From: a virus
Lineage: Duplodnaviria; Heunggongvirae; Uroviricota; Caudoviricetes
Reading direction: 5' to 3' (one strand)
DNA: 62,764 nucleotides
IMG/VR virus record: IMGVR_UViG_2516143071_000006
The position numbers and the translations under genes are program-made. Position 1 is the stretch's first letter. The number at the start of each line of letters is the position of its first letter. The notes below the pieces were generated by a model. That model worked only from the letters and a program-made list of their open reading frames with translations, did no database searches and was not told where the DNA came from. Positions 43,794 through 47,057 of the stretch are shown here, piece by piece.

Positions 43794-44465
43794 TCAGAAT
43801 TCAAATTGTCTTGCCCGCAGGCTTTTCAGCATTGGCATGGCCCGCTGGATAATGGAACTTGACATGTCGAGACGTGTTACCTCCCTTAGTAGCGCGTCTC
43901 TGTTCTTCGTCACCATGTAGATGGTCTCAAACGCAATGTCATACAGCTTGTTCGTGTATGAGGAGTTCAGCTCTTTCATAATGGGATACAGGTGTTTGCT
44001 GAGGTCCTGGGCTTTTTCCATCCAGAGCTGCATGTAGCAAAGGAGGATGATTTCTTCGGCTGTGAATTGTGGCTGAATCTGCGGCTGCTGTTCGGTTGGT
44101 GCTGTTTTTCCCTGGCTGAAATAGCAGTCTTCCAGTTTTTCGAATACCTCCCACGCCTGATCAGTTTCGAGCATTTTTGCGTGACGGGCTGCGCCGCGTT
44201 CTGTCCATAGGATGAGGGAGCGAACGTTACGGGCAATTTTCACAGAGTAGTTAAAAGCTACTCTGTGCTTGAACTCACGTAAAGTTTCACCTTCAAGTTT
44301 GAAGAAGTGTTTTTCCTCAATGAAACGACCTTTGTTTTCGTGGTGATTCTGGCGAATACGAATAGCTTCTGTGCCGTAAAGGTGCGCCAAAAGTTCGGTA
44401 GTGATAACGGGGATCTGCTTGTAAGTAATCGTGGAGAGTGTTTCAACAGAAACTTGAGTTGTCAT
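43794..44465 (-). CDS. Phage antirepressor (ORF6N/KilA-N-type N-terminus), C-terminus shared with 2929..3564
   Basis: ITYKQIPVITTELLAHLYGTEAIRIRQNHHENKGRF motif; shared QPQFTAEEIILLCYMQLWMEKAQ...RARQFEF tail. Confidence 0.7.
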   Translation of the reverse strand: MTTQVSVETLSTITYKQIPVITTELLAHLYGTEAIRIRQNHHENKGRFIEEKHFFKLEGETLREFKHRVAFNYSVKIARNVRSLILWTERGAARHAKMLETDQAWEVFEKLEDCYFSQGKTAPTEQQPQIQPQFTAEEIILLCYMQLWMEKAQDLSKHLYPIMKELNSSYTNKLYDIAFETIYMVTKNRDALLREVTRLDMSSSIIQRAMPMLKSLRARQFEF

Positions 44466-44809
44466 AATGACGCCCTCGAGTGGTTTCTAAACTATCACCA
44501 CCGTCAGGTTCCTAATCATCGGGTGGCGAGACGTACAGGGTTAGGAACTACCGGGAAACCAACCGGCGAGCTTTTCAGCTCCCCTATACGCCCCACCATA
44601 ATTCAGATGTGCGTGTGCATACGACAATAAAAAACACGCTCGCGGCGTGTCTCTGTCGCGGTTTCTATCCGGGGTTCCTAATCCCGACGCCAGATTTTGC
44701 TGGCGTGCGATGAATATAATCCCGGATACGCGACGTTGTCAAACTGATGGCATTGCAGATCCCTACGCAATGTAACACTATGTGTTATACATTAATAACG
44801 GAACAAAAA

Positions 44810-45117
44810 ATGCGCATTTTTAAAAACGCCTGGTTTGAGCGACTTGCACGCAAAACAAAATATCCGACCAATCACTGCGCGAAATTGTTAAACAGGCTGA
44901 TAACGGGCTTATCTCAGCAAACCTGGGTAACGGCGTTATCAAGCAACGTCTGCCACGAGTCGGTGGCGGCAAATCTGGCGGTTATCGCACAATCATTTTC
45001 TATCGCGTCGGCACAAGGGCCTTTTTCGTATATGCATACGCAAAAAATGAACGTGAAAATATAACCGCTACTGAGGAAAGTGCATTTCGGAAGGGGCTCC
45101 TCACGTACTCAATCTAA
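44810..45117 (+). pseudogene. RelE/ParE/HigB-like toxin interrupted by a +1 frameshift in an A-run
   Basis: Frame 1 reads MRIFKNAWFERLARK; frame 3 continues QNKISDQSLREIVKQADNGLISANLGNGVIKQRLPRVGGGKSGGYRTIIFYRVGTRAFFVYAYAKNERENI...; junction at aaaa 44852..44855. Confidence 0.6.
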
Positions 45118-45171: not shown

Positions 45172-45489
45172 ATGAGTAAAAATTACCGCAGTGATGCGCT
45201 TGCATCCGTACATGAAATGATGGAATCGCTTCATGATATCGGCGCAGTAACGAAACAGACTATGCGAGAATTCGATGAAACTTGTCTCCAGCCAGCGCCG
45301 GTAATGTCTCCGGAAAGGATCCGTGCACTGCGCGAACGAGAGCATCTGTCTCAACCTGTTTTTGCCAGATACCTCAACGTCAGTAAAAACCTGATATCAG
45401 ACTGGGAACGTGGTGTAAAACGGCCGGGAGGTGCCGCTCTTCGCCTTCTTTCAGTCGTAGAGAAAAACGGAATCCAGGTAATATCATGA
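45172..45489 (+). CDS. HTH (XRE-type) antitoxin-like protein, HigA-like partner of the upstream toxin
   Basis: 105 aa, C-terminal HTH (LSQPVFARYLNVSKNLISDWERG); immediately downstream of the toxin reading frame. Confidence 0.65.
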   Translation: MSKNYRSDALASVHEMMESLHDIGAVTKQTMREFDETCLQPAPVMSPERIRALREREHLSQPVFARYLNVSKNLISDWERGVKRPGGAALRLLSVVEKNGIQVIS

Positions 45490-45499
45490 TACTCCAATA

Positions 45500-45530
45500 C
45501 AACAAAACCCGCCGAAGCGGGTTTTCATTA
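45500..45530. terminator. Bidirectional terminator between convergent genes
   Basis: acccgccgaagcgggt hairpin flanked by A-run and T-run. Confidence 0.5.
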
Positions 45531-45539
45531 GAAGCACCT

Positions 45540-46025
45540 TTAGTTTTGCTGTTCTATTTTAAGCTTGATAGTTTCATACAAAACAATAGTTGCGCCTGTT
45601 TTACATAATTCCCGGCTGTCATACGCACGAGACCAATAACACAACCAGTTCTCGAGATCTTCTCGAGTATAGGTTTTGCAGGCCAGTCCCTCTGCCATTT
45701 CCACGATTTCATCGCCTGGTGCTGTTAACTCATAGCCATTCAACAACAAGAAGACATAACCAGCCATCATAGCTGTTCGTTTGTTTGCATTAGCAAATGG
45801 ATGATTCTGAATCAGACTTTCAATCAATACTGATGCCAGTACAAACATGTCATTAGTCTGTTCATACCATCGAACCATGCTGGGACGAGACTGAGAAGAA
45901 CTTAAATTATCAACACTCAGCACACTAACAGGTTCATCTGGTGTTTGAAGCTCAATTAAAAGGCGATTAATTTCGGTAAGATCATCAAACGAAAGGTAGT
46001 GCACTCCTTCAACAATCTCAGCCAT
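45540..46025 (-). CDS. doc: Fic/Doc-family toxin
   Basis: HPFANANKRTA motif (HPFxxGNKR type). Confidence 0.7.
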   Translation of the reverse strand: MAEIVEGVHYLSFDDLTEINRLLIELQTPDEPVSVLSVDNLSSSQSRPSMVRWYEQTNDMFVLASVLIESLIQNHPFANANKRTAMMAGYVFLLLNGYELTAPGDEIVEMAEGLACKTYTREDLENWLCYWSRAYDSRELCKTGATIVLYETIKLKIEQQN

Positions 46026-46043
46026 AGAGCACAATACCCATCA

Positions 46044-46268
46044 TTACACTTTTGAAAGTTCTTCCATTGCCTTCTCGTAACGAGAAAAACCGAAATCGAA
46101 AGCATTTTTCACCTGCTCACGATGAGTGCAATTTTCATCGATAGCCGGGCGCGGAGCTGCCACAACGCTTTTATCGCGAGGGGGAATAGTCAATCGCGGG
46201 TGTTTTTTTAGTGCGTAGCTCATTGGGTGTACCCTTACTTCTCCGTCCTGTTCTTTAACAAAAATCAA
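46044..46268 (-). CDS. Putative antitoxin for the Doc-like toxin
   Basis: Small ORF 10 nt upstream of the toxin on the same strand; no family assigned. Confidence 0.4.
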   Translation of the reverse strand: MIFVKEQDGEVRVHPMSYALKKHPRLTIPPRDKSVVAAPRPAIDENCTHREQVKNAFDFGFSRYEKAMEELSKV

Positions 46269-46341
46269 GTCAATACAAAATTAGTCAGGCTAATGTTGTT
46301 AGCATAGCCTAATACCAATCGTATTCACAACCACAGTAAGT

Positions 46342-46364
46342 GAAAAAACCCGCCGAAGCGGGTT
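46342..46364 (-). terminator. Intrinsic terminator downstream of hok
   Basis: Minus-strand acccgcttcggcgggt followed by uuuuuuc. Confidence 0.5.
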
Positions 46365-46432
46365 AAGTGCGGGTGCGTTGAGGATGCCTGACACATCAGA
46401 GGTGGCGAGGGATTTCTCCCTCGCCGGGTCTC

Positions 46433-46588
46433 TTACTCCTCAGGTTCGTAAGCTGTGAAGACAGCAACCTCCGTCTGACCGGTTCGGATTCGTACCTCGC
46501 AGAGGTCTTTCCTCGTTACCAGTGCCGTCACTACGACGGTAATACAGATGACGATCAGGGCGACTAACATCGCCTTTTGCTGCTTCAT
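46433..46588 (-). CDS. hok: Hok-family type I toxin (HokD/RelF-like); an in-frame upstream extension to 46645 is mok-like
   Basis: MKQQKAMLVALIVICITVVVTALVTRKDLCEVRIRTGQTEVAVFTAYEPEE is near-identical to HokD/RelF as remembered. Confidence 0.8.
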   Translation of the reverse strand: MKQQKAMLVALIVICITVVVTALVTRKDLCEVRIRTGQTEVAVFTAYEPEE

Positions 46589-46833
46589 AGCCTGCTTCTC
46601 CTTGCCTTTCGGCGCGTAAGAGGCTAACCTACATGTGTCTAGCATGAAATTGGCCTCAGATTAATGTTAGGCGTCTTGCAGGACGCGTAATGTTAACTGG
46701 GGTTTTTCTCTGTCTGCCTTACGGTGGCATGCCCGAGGCAGACAGCCTCAAGCACCCGCAGCAATTCTACTTAACTCTCGCTTTACCGCAAACCGTTTTT
46801 ACCCGATATGGGAATTCCCATATCGTAATGAAT

Positions 46834-46938
46834 TCAGTTCCCTAGTCGATCCATCAAAAACACAACCAGGCAGTAAACGCCCACAACAGCAATAACAGCC
46901 AGCGCACCTTCCATTGCCAGTGATATATCATCCGACAT
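46834..46938 (-). CDS. Small hydrophobic peptide (34 aa), not in the ORF track
   Basis: MSDDISLAMEGALAVIAVVGVYCLVVFLMDRLGN with AGGAGG 6 nt upstream of the ATG. Confidence 0.35.
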   Translation of the reverse strand: MSDDISLAMEGALAVIAVVGVYCLVVFLMDRLGN

Positions 46939-46973
46939 ATTCCCTCCTTTGGTGTTAATCCCGGCGAACGTTT

Positions 46974-47057
46974 TTACCCCCACCGACAAATAACATATAC
47001 TAAAAAAGTGATAGCCATAGCAACGCCTGTAATTGCAAATGCTTCAGGCCAGTTCAT
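46974..47057 (-). CDS. Small hydrophobic peptide (27 aa), translationally coupled to the DUF551 gene
   Basis: MNWPEAFAITGVAMAITFLVYVICRWG; ATG overlaps the DUF551 stop (ATGA); a stop-disrupted copy lies at 5951..6035. Confidence 0.35.
   Translation of the reverse strand: MNWPEAFAITGVAMAITFLVYVICRWG

What the first reader, a model, noticed from the sequence alone, without database searches (positions are those of the whole stretch)
45540..47057. Stacked addiction-type modules: Doc-like toxin pair, hok locus and two unannotated hydrophobic peptides
On the minus strand lie a HokD/RelF-like hok with an in-frame mok-like extension and a terminator, an antitoxin-sized ORF followed 10 nt later by a Doc/Fic toxin (HPFANANKR), and two short membrane peptides of 34 and 27 aa with good RBS or translational coupling to the DUF551 gene. 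With the RelE-like pair this makes three toxin-antitoxin-like loci within 2.5 kb between the nin genes and the replication genes.
Basis: partly seen in the sequence, partly recalled or inferred. Interest (0 to 1): 0.5.

Follow-up and report, generated by a model that had tools for sequence, protein, structure and literature searches.

The report
Prophage toxin-antitoxin cassettes plus two micro-ORFs
This stretch of an E. coli O104:H4 lambdoid prophage carries a complete hok/sok killer locus, an inserted Doc toxin cassette whose small partner belongs to no described antitoxin family, and two tiny membrane-peptide genes; most of it is ordinary and already annotated.

Summary
The window is 100% identical to an E. 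coli O104:H4 prophage. On the minus strand, between the replication and nin genes, lie four units.

- **hok/mok/sok:** a complete type I locus, 92% identical to the experimentally proven hokW-sokW. It is the full-length form of K-12 hokD.
- **Doc cassette:** an 841-bp insertion bounded by an exact 20-nt duplication of the hok terminator. It encodes a Doc-family toxin (motif HPFANANKR) preceded by a 59-aa protein.
- **27-aa membrane ORF:** its start overlaps the stop of the upstream gene (ATGA).
- **34-aa membrane ORF:** has a strong ribosome-binding site.

RefSeq already annotates hokD, Doc, the 59-aa ORF and the 34-aa ORF. Only the 27-aa ORF is unannotated, yet it is conserved under purifying selection in many lambdoid and Stx phages.

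The 59-aa protein sat directly upstream of this Doc subfamily in all 8 contexts checked. It is not Phd/YefM. It is predicted as one conserved C-terminal helix with no DNA-binding fold, so it is probably a minimal antitoxin of an undescribed family.

Nothing marks the two small peptides as addiction modules. The neighbouring RelE-like toxin is a pseudogene with two frameshifts. Overall these are new members of known kinds, of modest interest.

The parts
46974..47057 (-). 27-aa single-pass membrane micro-ORF (MNWPEAFAITGVAMAITFLVYVICRWG). It is translationally coupled (ATGA) to the stop of the upstream DUF551 gene and is unannotated.
   Evidence: Searches show the ORF. Homologues occur in 933W, PhiR12_5 and more than 460 viral contigs. 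There are 13 nucleotide alleles, all of 27 codons with no indels. Pooled pN/pS is 0.37 in this frame, against 0.88 and 1.25 in the other two sense frames. The best 19-aa Kyte-Doolittle window scores 2.32 at residues 6-24.
46834..46938 (-). 34-aa hydrophobic ORF (MSDDISLAMEGALAVIAVVGVYCLVVFLMDRLGN) with a strong Shine-Dalgarno sequence (AGGAGG). RefSeq lists it as hypothetical protein WP_001278450.1.
   Evidence: Searches show the ORF and its annotation. It is found only in E. coli prophages at 78% identity or more. Variation is too low to test selection. Net charge is -3.
46794..46979 (-). 175-bp module carrying the 34-aa ORF, flanked by 11-bp direct repeats GGGTAAAAACG (46979-46969 and 46804-46794). 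The module is absent in 933W, where the 27-aa ORF abuts the hok promoter.
   Evidence: Sequence; alignment with 933W.
46804..46825 (.). Perfect 22-bp palindrome CGATATGGGAATTCCCATATCG between the 34-aa ORF and the hok promoter. Its function is unknown.
   Evidence: unique in the window, with 0 matches expected by chance.
46764..46791 (-). Putative hok promoter: TTGCGG, 16-nt spacer, TAGAAT. The Rfam model's 5' end (46757) lies 7 nt downstream.
   Evidence: Read from the sequence. It is invariant between the window and 933W. It falls below the threshold of the consensus scan, so this is an inference.
46345..46757 (-). Full-length hok mRNA. The 5' tac element GGGUGCUUGAGG (46757-46746) pairs with the 3' fbi element CCUCAACGCACCC (46383-46371). 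The terminator is at 46364-46345.
   Evidence: The Rfam RF01794 leader model scores 110 bits against a gathering score of 59, on the hok sense strand. The MFE fold pairs the 5' and 3' ends, with z = -6.6. Compensatory changes relative to 933W are seen. tac and fbi are invariant in 45 alleles.
46433..46645 (-). mok reading frame (70 aa), in frame with hok and including it.
   Evidence: The mok ATG is invariant in 45 alleles. The equivalent mokW is annotated in 933W.
46433..46588 (-). hok toxin gene (51 aa), named HokD by RefSeq.
   Evidence: Pfam HOK_GEF 1.4e-23; phrog_251 1.8e-32; RefSeq hokD; near-identical to K-12 hokD across the ORF and 3' UTR.
46602..46708 (+). Sok-type antisense RNA gene. 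The promoter is TTGCCT (46602-46607), 17-nt spacer, TAACCT (46625-46630). The RNA runs about 46637-46707, with a long hairpin and a U-run.
   Evidence: The coordinates map onto the annotated sokW of 933W. The fold is -30.8 kcal/mol, z = -4.7. The -35 and -10 elements are invariant in 45 alleles, while the Sok 5' end is hypervariable. sokW RNA has been shown experimentally in Sp5 (PMC8621323).
45504..46344 (-). 841-bp Doc cassette, inserted at the hok terminator. It is bounded by an exact 20-nt direct repeat AACCCGCTTCGGCGGGTTTT (46364-46345 and 45523-45504).
   Evidence: One search shows the repeat. Prophages without the cassette have hok directly next to the HTH gene. The cassette follows hok in 9 of 67 viral loci and is present in 125 of 5426 complete E. 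coli genomes.
46044..46223 (-). 59-aa partner of Doc, the putative minimal antitoxin (phrog_2208, function unknown).
   Evidence: It has no Pfam or NCBIfam hit and matches phrog_2208 at 2.7e-42. It sat directly upstream of this Doc subfamily in 8 of 8 contexts. AF2 predicts a single helix at residues 34-57 with pLDDT 84-93. pN is 0.05-0.09 in the C-terminal half while pS is saturated.
45540..46025 (-). Doc (death-on-curing) family Fic-fold toxin, 161 aa, motif HPFANANKR.
   Evidence: TIGR01550 122 bits against a cut-off of 38.65; phrog_577 1e-50; PDB 9vzc 1e-12 and P1 Doc 3k33 1e-4.
44809..45117 (+). RelE-like (PF06296) toxin pseudogene with two 1-nt deletions. This is context, outside the finding's coordinates.
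   Evidence: Three-frame translation and alignment with the intact 123-aa homologue of E. coli E2865.
45172..45489 (+). Intact HTH (MqsA/HigA-like) antitoxin gene of the decayed RelE pair. It runs convergent to doc.
   Evidence: Pfam HTH_3 1e-7; phrog_2104 3e-43. In intact homologues it overlaps the toxin gene by 8 nt.

Best explanation
The interval is a mosaic of independent accessory cassettes. They lie in the rightward early operon of a lambdoid prophage of E. coli O104:H4, between the replication and nin genes.

**1. hok/mok/sok, a complete type I toxin-antitoxin locus.**
- Shown: a stable hok mRNA (46757 to 46345) folds with its 5' end paired to a 3' element.
- Inferred by homology: this pairing closes the mok and hok ribosome sites. 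3' trimming then lets mok be translated, and hok with it. Hok depolarises the inner membrane.
- Shown: an antisense Sok RNA gene (about 46637-46707 on the plus strand) overlaps the mok start.
- Inferred: Sok triggers RNase III cleavage of the hok mRNA. By analogy with the 92%-identical hokW-sokW, the locus probably helps lysis and phage release on induction rather than simple 'addiction'.

**2. A type II Doc cassette, an 841-bp insertion at the hok terminator.**
- Inferred from family membership and an intact catalytic motif: Doc phosphorylates EF-Tu and stops translation.
- Inferred from strict synteny, strong purifying selection and the predicted structure: the 59-aa protein upstream neutralises Doc through its conserved C-terminal amphipathic helix. 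It has no DNA-binding domain, so it is a neutralisation-only antitoxin and not a Phd.

**3. The 27-aa ORF.** It is a real, conserved single-pass membrane microprotein, translated by coupling to the upstream DUF551-type gene. Its function is unknown and it is not a TA component.

**4. The 34-aa ORF.** It sits in a 175-bp inserted module and is a plausible but weakly supported membrane peptide.

**5. The adjacent RelE/HTH pair.** It is a decayed TA locus.
For: **Identity.** The interval is 100% identical to O104:H4 chromosomes, and RefSeq annotates it as hokD, Doc, two hypothetical proteins and DUF551.

**hok**
- Pfam and PHROG hits; Rfam leader model at 110 bits.
- tac-fbi pairing in the MFE fold, z = -6.6.
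- Sok hairpin, z = -4.7.
- Colinear with the annotated mokW, hokW and sokW, with compensatory stem changes.
- Regulatory elements are invariant across 45 alleles.
- hokW-sokW was shown to be a type I TA that aids Sp5 release (PMC8621323).

**Doc**
- TIGR01550 at 122 bits.
- Motif HPFANANKR, against HIFNDANKR in P1 Doc and HCFYNANKR in the toxic E. faecalis EF-Tu kinase 9VZC.

**59-aa partner**
- In 8 of 8 contexts checked, across at least 6 unrelated neighbourhoods, a 58-62-aa family member sits 3-18 nt upstream of this Doc subfamily.
- pS is saturated while pN is 0.05-0.09 in the C-terminal half.
- AF2 predicts one helix at residues 34-57 with pLDDT 84-93.
- 39 representatives among 1.84 billion proteins, almost all stand-alone and 47-66 aa.

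**Insertion.** An exact terminator duplication bounds the cassette, and E2865 shows the empty site.

**27-aa ORF.**

**RelE decay.**
Against: - No expression or toxicity data exist for this locus itself. Every functional step is inferred by homology.
- No convincing sigma-70 promoter was found for the Doc cassette in this context (and reading of the sequence). Its upstream 121 nt differ between contexts.
- The Doc model from AF2 was of low confidence (pLDDT 52), so the fold was not confirmed structurally.
- A Doc-partner complex could not be modelled.
- The resemblance of the partner's helix to the Phd C-terminal hot-spot spacing is what any amphipathic helix would show, and hhalign finds no relationship (probability 0.2%).
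- Some alleles of the 34-aa ORF carry disruptive changes within the hydrophobic segment (L to P, VY to GD).
- The antisense frame of the 27-aa ORF also shows a lowish pN/pS (0.48).
Confidence: 0.75

Rival explanations
1. The two short hydrophobic ORFs are themselves type I-like membrane toxins. This would make the region a stack of four or five addiction modules.
For: Both peptides are predicted to be single-pass and hydrophobic, and they sit next to hok. The plus strand has promoter-like hexamers antisense to both ORFs, at 46914-46941 and 46973-47001.
Against: - The promoter-like hits are no more frequent than in shuffled sequence (3 found against 2.4 expected).
- No Rfam or other RNA signal was found there.
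- The 27-aa ORF has no promoter or leader of its own. It is coupled by ATGA to the preceding gene, and it occurs in phages with no hok nearby.
- The 34-aa peptide has net charge -3 and the 27-aa peptide is net neutral (as is Hok), so charge gives no support.
- Neither matches any toxin family.
Confidence: 0.08
2. The 59-aa protein is not an antitoxin. It could be a regulator, an adaptor or a co-substrate. The Doc-like enzyme would then be a non-toxic Fic-type modifier used by the phage, so the pair is not a TA system.
For: - The partner has no similarity to Phd/YefM or to any known antitoxin.
- It lacks a DNA-binding domain.
- Its conserved N-terminal I-P-x-R-D-K motif has no known role.
- Several cassettes sit inside phage structural operons.
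Against: - The architecture is the classic type II one: a small upstream gene, a 3-18 nt gap, and a toxin with an intact Doc-specific HxFx[D/N]ANKR motif.
- The pair moves as a unit between unrelated loci.
- Antitoxins that consist of a neutralisation domain alone, and portable Phd-C-like helices, are documented (PMC10440598).
Confidence: 0.12
3. The loci are inert relics, like the chromosomal hok loci of E. coli K-12. They would be conserved only because the prophage is recent, with no current function.
For: - The neighbouring RelE-like toxin has decayed.
- K-12 hokD has lost its whole regulatory 5' part.
- The Doc cassette lacks a recognisable -35 element here.
- POCJ13 has a nonsense codon in the 27-aa ORF.
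Against: - Every hok regulatory element is intact and invariant over 45 alleles, while neighbouring positions vary.
- The Doc ORF and its partner ORF are intact in 125 genomes and under strong purifying selection across genera.
- The near-identical hokW-sokW is functional (PMC8621323).
Confidence: 0.1

Closest known systems
hokW-sokW of Stx2 phages 933W and Sp5 (type I TA; Takada et al. 2021, PMC8621323)
   Same: The whole locus is colinear and about 92% identical: promoter, tac, mok, the Sok promoter and hairpin, hok, the 3' hairpin and fbi. In both, a 27-aa ORF coupled to the preceding ea/DUF551-type gene lies upstream.
   Different: - The Hok C-terminus is of the HokD type (FTAYEPEE against FVDYESEK).
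- The window's locus ends in a canonical terminator that 933W lacks.
- The window has a 175-bp module carrying the 34-aa ORF between the 27-aa ORF and the hok promoter.
- The window's block lies in the pR operon between the replication and nin genes, whereas in 933W it lies near attR.
hokD (relF) of the relBEF operon, cryptic prophage Qin, E. coli K-12
   Same: The hok ORF, 3' hairpin, fbi and terminator are near-identical. Both lie in a lambdoid prophage next to a RelE-type TA pair.
   Different: In K-12 the homology stops at the hok Shine-Dalgarno sequence. The mok start, the Sok promoter and tac are replaced by the relE 3' end. The window holds the complete, regulated form. Its RelE-type neighbour belongs to a different family (PF06296 plus HTH), is convergent to hok, and is decayed.
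hok/sok of plasmid R1 (the paradigm)
   Same: It has the same set of elements: tac-fbi fold-back, mok-coupled translation, and a short antisense RNA with a terminal hairpin whose promoter lies inside mok. This comparison rests on established knowledge plus the Rfam RF01794 match.
   Different: Here mok is in frame with hok. In R1, as I recall, it is out of frame. The context is a prophage, not a plasmid.
Phd-Doc of phage P1 and of E. faecalis (PDB 3K33, 9VZC)
   Same: The toxin belongs to the Doc family and has an intact HxFx[D/N]ANKR motif. The antitoxin gene lies immediately upstream. Neutralisation is presumed to occur through a C-terminal helix, as it does for Phd residues 52-73 (PMC9207808).
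   Different: - The partner is not Phd/YefM. It has no Pfam hit, and hhalign gives a probability of 0.2%.
- It has no N-terminal dimeric DNA-binding domain.
- It carries a conserved I-P-x-R-D-K motif instead.
- The Doc is about 160 aa, with a variable C-terminal tail, against 126 aa in P1.
Neutralisation-domain-only antitoxins, such as PaaA2 of the O157 paaR2-paaA2-parE2 system (from memory) and the portable Phd-C element (PMC10440598)
   Same: These are short, largely unstructured antitoxins with a toxin-binding helix and no DNA-binding domain.
   Different: No sequence relationship was found. No dedicated regulator gene accompanies this cassette in the 8 contexts examined.

Membership tests
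hok/sok type I toxin-antitoxin | Hok/Gef-family toxin peptide of about 50 aa | tested here: met
   Pfam PF01848 at 1.4e-23 covering the full model 1-42 of 42; phrog_251 at 1.8e-32.
hok/sok type I toxin-antitoxin | An overlapping mok frame that starts upstream of hok | tested here: met
   A 70-aa ORF at 46433-46645 shares the hok stop codon. Its ATG is invariant in 45 alleles.
hok/sok type I toxin-antitoxin | Conserved mRNA leader, and 5'-3' fold-back (tac-fbi) pairing | tested here: met
   Rfam RF01794 scores 110 bits against a gathering score of 59, full length. The MFE fold pairs 46757-46746 with 46383-46371, z = -6.6. Compensatory changes relative to 933W appear.
hok/sok type I toxin-antitoxin | A cis-encoded antisense Sok RNA with its own promoter, opposite the mok start | tested here: met
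   On the plus strand, TTGCCT-17-TAACCT, then a hairpin and a U-run at 46637-46707. This maps onto the annotated sokW. The promoter hexamers are invariant in 45 alleles. Transcription itself was not tested.
hok/sok type I toxin-antitoxin | Toxicity of Hok and neutralisation by Sok | not testable with these tools
   Shown only for the 92%-identical hokW-sokW (PMC8621323).
Doc (death-on-curing) toxins, Fic fold | A match to the Doc subfamily model above the curated cut-off | tested here: met
   TIGR01550 scores 122.2 bits against a cut-off of 38.65. Pfam Fic scores 44.5 bits against a cut-off of 24.
Doc (death-on-curing) toxins, Fic fold | The Doc-type catalytic motif HxFx[D/N][A/G]NKR | tested here: met
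   HPFANANKR is present. It aligns with HIFNDANKR of P1 Doc and HCFYNANKR of 9VZC. H75, F77, N79, N81, K82 and R83 are invariant in 29 homologues.
Doc (death-on-curing) toxins, Fic fold | Fic/Doc three-dimensional fold | tested here: inconclusive
   The AF2 model has a mean pLDDT of 52, so no fold search was run.
Doc (death-on-curing) toxins, Fic fold | EF-Tu kinase activity and growth arrest | not testable with these tools
   Inferred from family membership only.
Phd/YefM antitoxins (tested for the 59-aa ORF) | Sequence membership (Pfam PhdYeFM, or similarity to P1 Phd) | tested here: not met
   No Pfam or NCBIfam hit. No PDB hit below E = 0.19. hhalign against P1 Phd gives a probability of 0.2%.
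Phd/YefM antitoxins (tested for the 59-aa ORF) | A folded N-terminal dimerisation and DNA-binding domain | tested here: not met
   AF2 shows residues 1-33 without regular structure and one helix at 34-57. No family member is fused to a DNA-binding domain.
Type II toxin-antitoxin module (generic) | A small gene immediately upstream of the toxin gene, with the pair conserved as a unit across unrelated genomic contexts | tested here: met
   8 of 8 contexts show this. The cassette insertion has defined borders.
Type II toxin-antitoxin module (generic) | Direct toxin-antitoxin binding and autoregulation | not testable with these tools
Type I membrane toxins (tested for the 27-aa and 34-aa ORFs) | An own promoter and leader, plus an antisense or divergent regulatory RNA | tested here: not met
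   The 27-aa ORF is coupled by ATGA to the upstream gene. There is no Rfam hit, and the antisense promoter-like sites are at chance level.
RelE (PF06296) / HTH antitoxin pair | An intact toxin reading frame overlapping the antitoxin gene | tested here: not met
   There are two 1-nt deletions relative to the intact 123-aa homologue. The frame is broken, and the remaining ORF ends 54 nt before the HTH gene starts.

The most novel reading that the evidence does not exclude
The 59-aa protein (phrog_2208) would found an undescribed family of minimal antitoxins that consist of a neutralisation helix alone and have no DNA-binding domain. The family would be dedicated to a roughly 160-aa Doc subfamily. 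Together they would form a self-contained cassette of about 0.8 kb that hops between phage and chromosomal sites across Enterobacterales. In addition, the 27-aa ORF would be a genuine membrane microprotein, never annotated, that is carried by many lambdoid phages including the Stx phage 933W.
Probability: 0.6. Interest if true: 0.4.

Novelty: new member of a known kind. Interest (0 to 1): 0.3.

Why it matters
**hok/sok.** This part adds little. It is an intact relative of a locus already shown to be functional, and it shows what K-12 hokD looked like before it lost its regulatory half.

**Doc cassette.** This is the more useful part. A widespread Doc subfamily in Enterobacterales is paired, in all 8 contexts checked, with a small protein that every curated library calls 'hypothetical'.
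- If this protein neutralises Doc with a single helix and without a DNA-binding domain, it is a compact natural Doc inhibitor. That is relevant to work on Phd-mimetic peptides.
- It would also be one more example of antitoxins that consist of a neutralisation domain alone.

**27-aa ORF.** It is a clean case of a conserved phage microprotein missed by annotation pipelines, including in the well-studied phage 933W.

**Insertion sites.** The exact cassette junctions show how TA 'stacks' in prophages build up by insertion at terminators, while neighbouring modules decay.

Tried and rejected
- **Toxin-partner complex.** I tried to model it by translating through the two stop codons and then by using a linker fusion.
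- **Phd-like motif in the 59-aa protein.** The spacing F42, F46, Y49, M53, L56 matches the Phd hot spots F56, F/M60, H63, L67, L70 (PMC9207808), and both proteins end 3 residues after the last Leu. However, hhalign shows no relationship, and this spacing is generic for an amphipathic helix. I keep it only as an analogy.
- **AF2 model of Doc.** It used 29 homologues and came out at pLDDT 52, so I ran no fold search.
- **PADLOC defence models.** Nothing meaningful turned up for any gene here.
- **Rfam hits isrK, rsmX and istR** at 46343-46430 and 45501-45591. All score below their gathering thresholds and simply reflect the two terminator copies.
- **A sigma-70 promoter for the Doc cassette.** None was convincing in this context. 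Cassettes in other contexts have TTGAAG-17-TACACT-type promoters at the homologous position, but the -35 element is replaced at the insertion junction here.
- **Deeper homologues of the 34-aa ORF.** None was found below 78% identity, so no test of selection was possible.
- **Literature.** Searches for the RefSeq accessions and for DUF551-linked small proteins found nothing.
Full report
**Source and context**

The 1.8 kb around the finding is 100% identical to chromosomes of E. coli O104:H4, for example NC_018658.1. RefSeq annotation places it in a lambdoid prophage. The minus-strand gene order is cro, cII, replication genes, DUF1627, DUF977, DUF551, [the finding], an ORF6N antirepressor, ninB, ninE, rusA, ninH and Q. 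All genes of the finding lie on the minus strand, so they run in the same direction as rightward early transcription.

RefSeq already lists the following:
- a death-on-curing family toxin (161 aa);
- a 59-aa hypothetical protein;
- hokD;
- a 34-aa hypothetical protein (WP_001278450.1);
- DUF551.

The 27-aa ORF is not annotated. Its exact sequence is absent from a collection of 15 billion proteins.

**The observation**

All the ORFs described are present at the stated coordinates.
- Hok matches Pfam HOK_GEF at 1.4e-23, and the 70-aa mok frame shares the hok stop codon.
- The Doc-like ORF matches Pfam Fic and, well above its cut-off, TIGR01550 (122 bits against 38.65). It also matches phrog_577, 'Doc-like toxin'.
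- The Doc motif is HPFANANKR. It aligns with HIFNDANKR of P1 Doc and with HCFYNANKR of 9VZC. 9VZC is the E. faecalis Doc, a toxic EF-Tu kinase (PMC13034048). An Asn at motif position 5 is therefore compatible with activity.
- The conserved Doc start is the ATG at 46025, 18 nt after the partner's stop codon. The TTG at 46034 is not conserved.

**hok/mok/sok**

*Leader and antisense RNA.* The Rfam model called 'sok' (RF01794) matches 46757-46583 over its full length at 110 bits, against a gathering score of 59. The match lies on the hok sense strand and ends at the hok start codon. It therefore identifies the conserved hok leader, not the antisense RNA itself.

On the plus strand, TTGCCT (46602-46607), a 17-nt spacer and TAACCT (46625-46630) precede a transcript of about 70 nt. 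That transcript has a long hairpin and a U-run (-30.8 kcal/mol, z = -4.7). By colinear alignment it maps exactly onto the sokW RNA annotated in phage 933W.

*mRNA fold.* The full-length mRNA (46757 to 46345) folds with its 5' GGGUGCUUGAGG paired to the 3' CCUCAACGCACCC. This is the classical tac-fbi fold-back (z = -6.6). The window and 933W differ by compensatory changes in the 5' stem and in the 3' hairpin.

*Variation across alleles.* Among 45 distinct alleles recovered from viral contigs, some elements are invariant or nearly so: tac, fbi, the mok ATG and both Sok promoter hexamers. The first few mok codons, which form the 5' recognition end of Sok, are hypervariable.

*Experimental precedent.* hokW-sokW has been shown to be a type I TA that depends on RNase III and Hfq. 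After mitomycin C, sokW falls and HokW rises, and deleting the locus halves Sp5 phage release (PMC8621323).

*Relation to K-12.* K-12 hokD in prophage Qin is near-identical across the hok ORF, 3' hairpin, fbi and terminator. Homology stops at the hok Shine-Dalgarno sequence, and the regulatory half is replaced by the 3' end of relE. The window therefore carries the complete form of hokD.

**The Doc cassette**

*Insertion site.* In E. coli E2865 the same hok locus is followed directly by the convergent HTH/RelE pair. In the window, 841 bp lie between them. This insert is bounded by an exact 20-nt direct repeat of the hok terminator, AACCCGCTTCGGCGGGTTTT. The repeat occurs only twice in the window, with 0 expected by chance.

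*Frequency.* Only 9 of 67 viral loci that have the 34-aa ORF followed by hok carry the cassette after hok. It is present in 125 of 5426 complete E. coli genomes.

*The partner protein.* The 59-aa ORF has no Pfam, NCBIfam or PADLOC match. It equals phrog_2208, whose function is unknown.

I sampled eight contexts:
- the window;
- an Ewingella myovirus baseplate region;
- a Salmonella island that also holds hok, parDE and vapBC;
- a dinI/umuDC neighbourhood;
- the Providencia chromosome between topA and sodC;
- Pantoea and Xenorhabdus phage regions;
- Serratia.

In every one, a 58-62-aa member of the same family lies 3-18 nt upstream of a Doc that is 63-78% identical to the window's.

*Selection and structure.* Synonymous sites are saturated (pS 0.7-1.0). 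pN is only 0.05-0.09 in the C-terminal half and 0.17-0.28 in the N-terminal half. AF2 predicts a single helix at residues 34-57 (pLDDT 84-93) and no fold for residues 1-33.

An exhaustive HMM search of 1.84 billion representative proteins found 39 relatives. Nearly all are stand-alone and 47-66 aa long, and none is fused to a DNA-binding domain. The conserved features are an I-P-x-R-D-K motif and helix positions A41, Y49 and L56.

*Not a Phd.* hhalign against P1 Phd gives a probability of 0.2%. I had first verified that Phd sequence against PDB 3K33.

The spacing of the helix's hydrophobic residues does coincide with the Phd hot spots reported in PMC9207808. That spacing is generic for amphipathic helices, so I treat it only as an analogy.

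Antitoxins that consist of a neutralisation domain alone, and a portable 'Phd-C' helix, are recognised concepts (PMC10440598). The most likely mechanism is therefore helix-mediated neutralisation of an EF-Tu kinase by a minimal antitoxin. Every step of that mechanism is inferred.

*Promoter.* No convincing promoter for the cassette was found in this context.

**The small ORFs**

*The 27-aa ORF.* It is conserved in 933W, where it is unannotated and lies between L0139 and mokW. It is also conserved in phage PhiR12_5 next to the integrase-proximal ea genes, in more than 460 viral contigs, and in several Escherichia and Shigella chromosomes.
- Every copy starts with ATGA overlapping the upstream gene's stop codon, with GGAGG upstream.
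- All 13 nucleotide alleles have exactly 27 codons.
- The lineages are 52-63% identical at the protein level.
- The motifs M-x-W-P-[ED]-A and I-C-R-W are conserved around a variable hydrophobic core.
- Pooled pN/pS is 0.37 in this frame with no stop codons. The other two sense frames give 0.88 and 1.25 with many stops.
- One phage, POCJ13, has a nonsense codon at position 3.

This is good evidence for a real membrane microprotein. Nothing links it to toxin-antitoxin biology, and it also occurs without hok nearby.

*The 34-aa ORF.* It sits in a 175-bp module flanked by 11-bp direct repeats, and 933W lacks this module.
- It has a strong Shine-Dalgarno sequence.
- It is found only in E. coli at 78% identity or more, with almost no variation. 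Some alleles carry L to P or VY to GD changes within the hydrophobic segment.
- Its net charge is -3.
- It is followed by a unique, perfect 22-bp palindrome of unknown role.

Whether it is translated remains open.

**The RelE-like pair**

The intact E2865 gene encodes 123 aa and overlaps its HTH antitoxin gene by 8 nt. Relative to it, the window's toxin gene has two 1-nt deletions. RefSeq calls only an 85-aa remnant. The HTH gene is intact. The region therefore holds two intact TA modules and one decayed one.

**Verdict**

- The 'stacked addiction modules' interpretation is right for hok/sok and Doc. It is wrong or unsupported for the small peptides, and overstated for RelE.
- hok/sok is already known.
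- The Doc cassette is a new member of the type II class with an uncharacterised minimal partner family.
- The 27-aa ORF is a small annotation gain.
- Interest is modest.

Noticed in passing
window 44519-44719 (minus strand), upstream of ORF 43794-44465: Rfam matches a C4 antisense RNA (66 bits against a gathering score of 45), isrK (69 bits against 50) and the c4 a1/b1 target (44 bits, just under 46.7). All lie directly upstream of an ORF6N antirepressor gene. This looks like a P1 immI-like, or Gifsy-1 IsrK/AnrP-like, antirepressor control module inside a lambdoid nin region.
   Followed up: no
window 44809-45117 (plus strand): The RelE-like (PF06296) toxin gene has two 1-nt deletions relative to the intact 123-aa homologue of E. 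coli E2865, while its HTH antitoxin (45172-45489) is intact. One related strain (L179) shares only the first deletion.
   Followed up: yes
window 46630-46645, and 45 hok alleles from loci L099-L178: The first few mok codons, which form the 5' recognition end of Sok, are hypervariable among hok alleles. The flanking promoter, tac and fbi elements are invariant. This could keep the several hok/sok copies in one genome from cross-reacting. E. coli genomes carry a median of 2 and up to 12 matching places.
   Followed up: partly
window 46804-46825: A perfect 22-bp palindrome, CGATATGGGAATTCCCATATCG, lies between the 34-aa ORF and the hok promoter. It is unique in the window and has no U-run after it, so it is not a classical terminator.
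   Followed up: partly
L185 (K-12 MG1655, prophage Qin) 2520-2900: K-12 hokD keeps the hok ORF, the 3' UTR and the same terminator. Its homology to the complete locus stops at the hok Shine-Dalgarno sequence, and the mok start, Sok promoter and tac are replaced by the relE 3' end.
   Followed up: yes
L005 (Salmonella enterica contig DAAWNC010000008.1) 2496-5009: This is another TA stack. A hok gene, the 59-aa/Doc cassette, parDE and vapBC lie side by side within 2.5 kb.
   Followed up: no
P0070 (74 aa) and L009 (phage POCJ13) 1249-1332: Some contigs fuse the 27-aa and 34-aa ORFs into one 74-aa reading frame through an indel. Phage POCJ13 has a TAG at codon 3 of the 27-aa ORF.
   Followed up: no
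L002 (phage 933W) 2939-3022 compared with window 46974-47057: The block of DUF551/ea-type gene, 27-aa ORF and hok lies near attR, in the ea region, in 933W and PhiR12_5. In this prophage it lies between the replication and nin genes. The block has therefore moved between the early-left and early-right operons.
   Followed up: no
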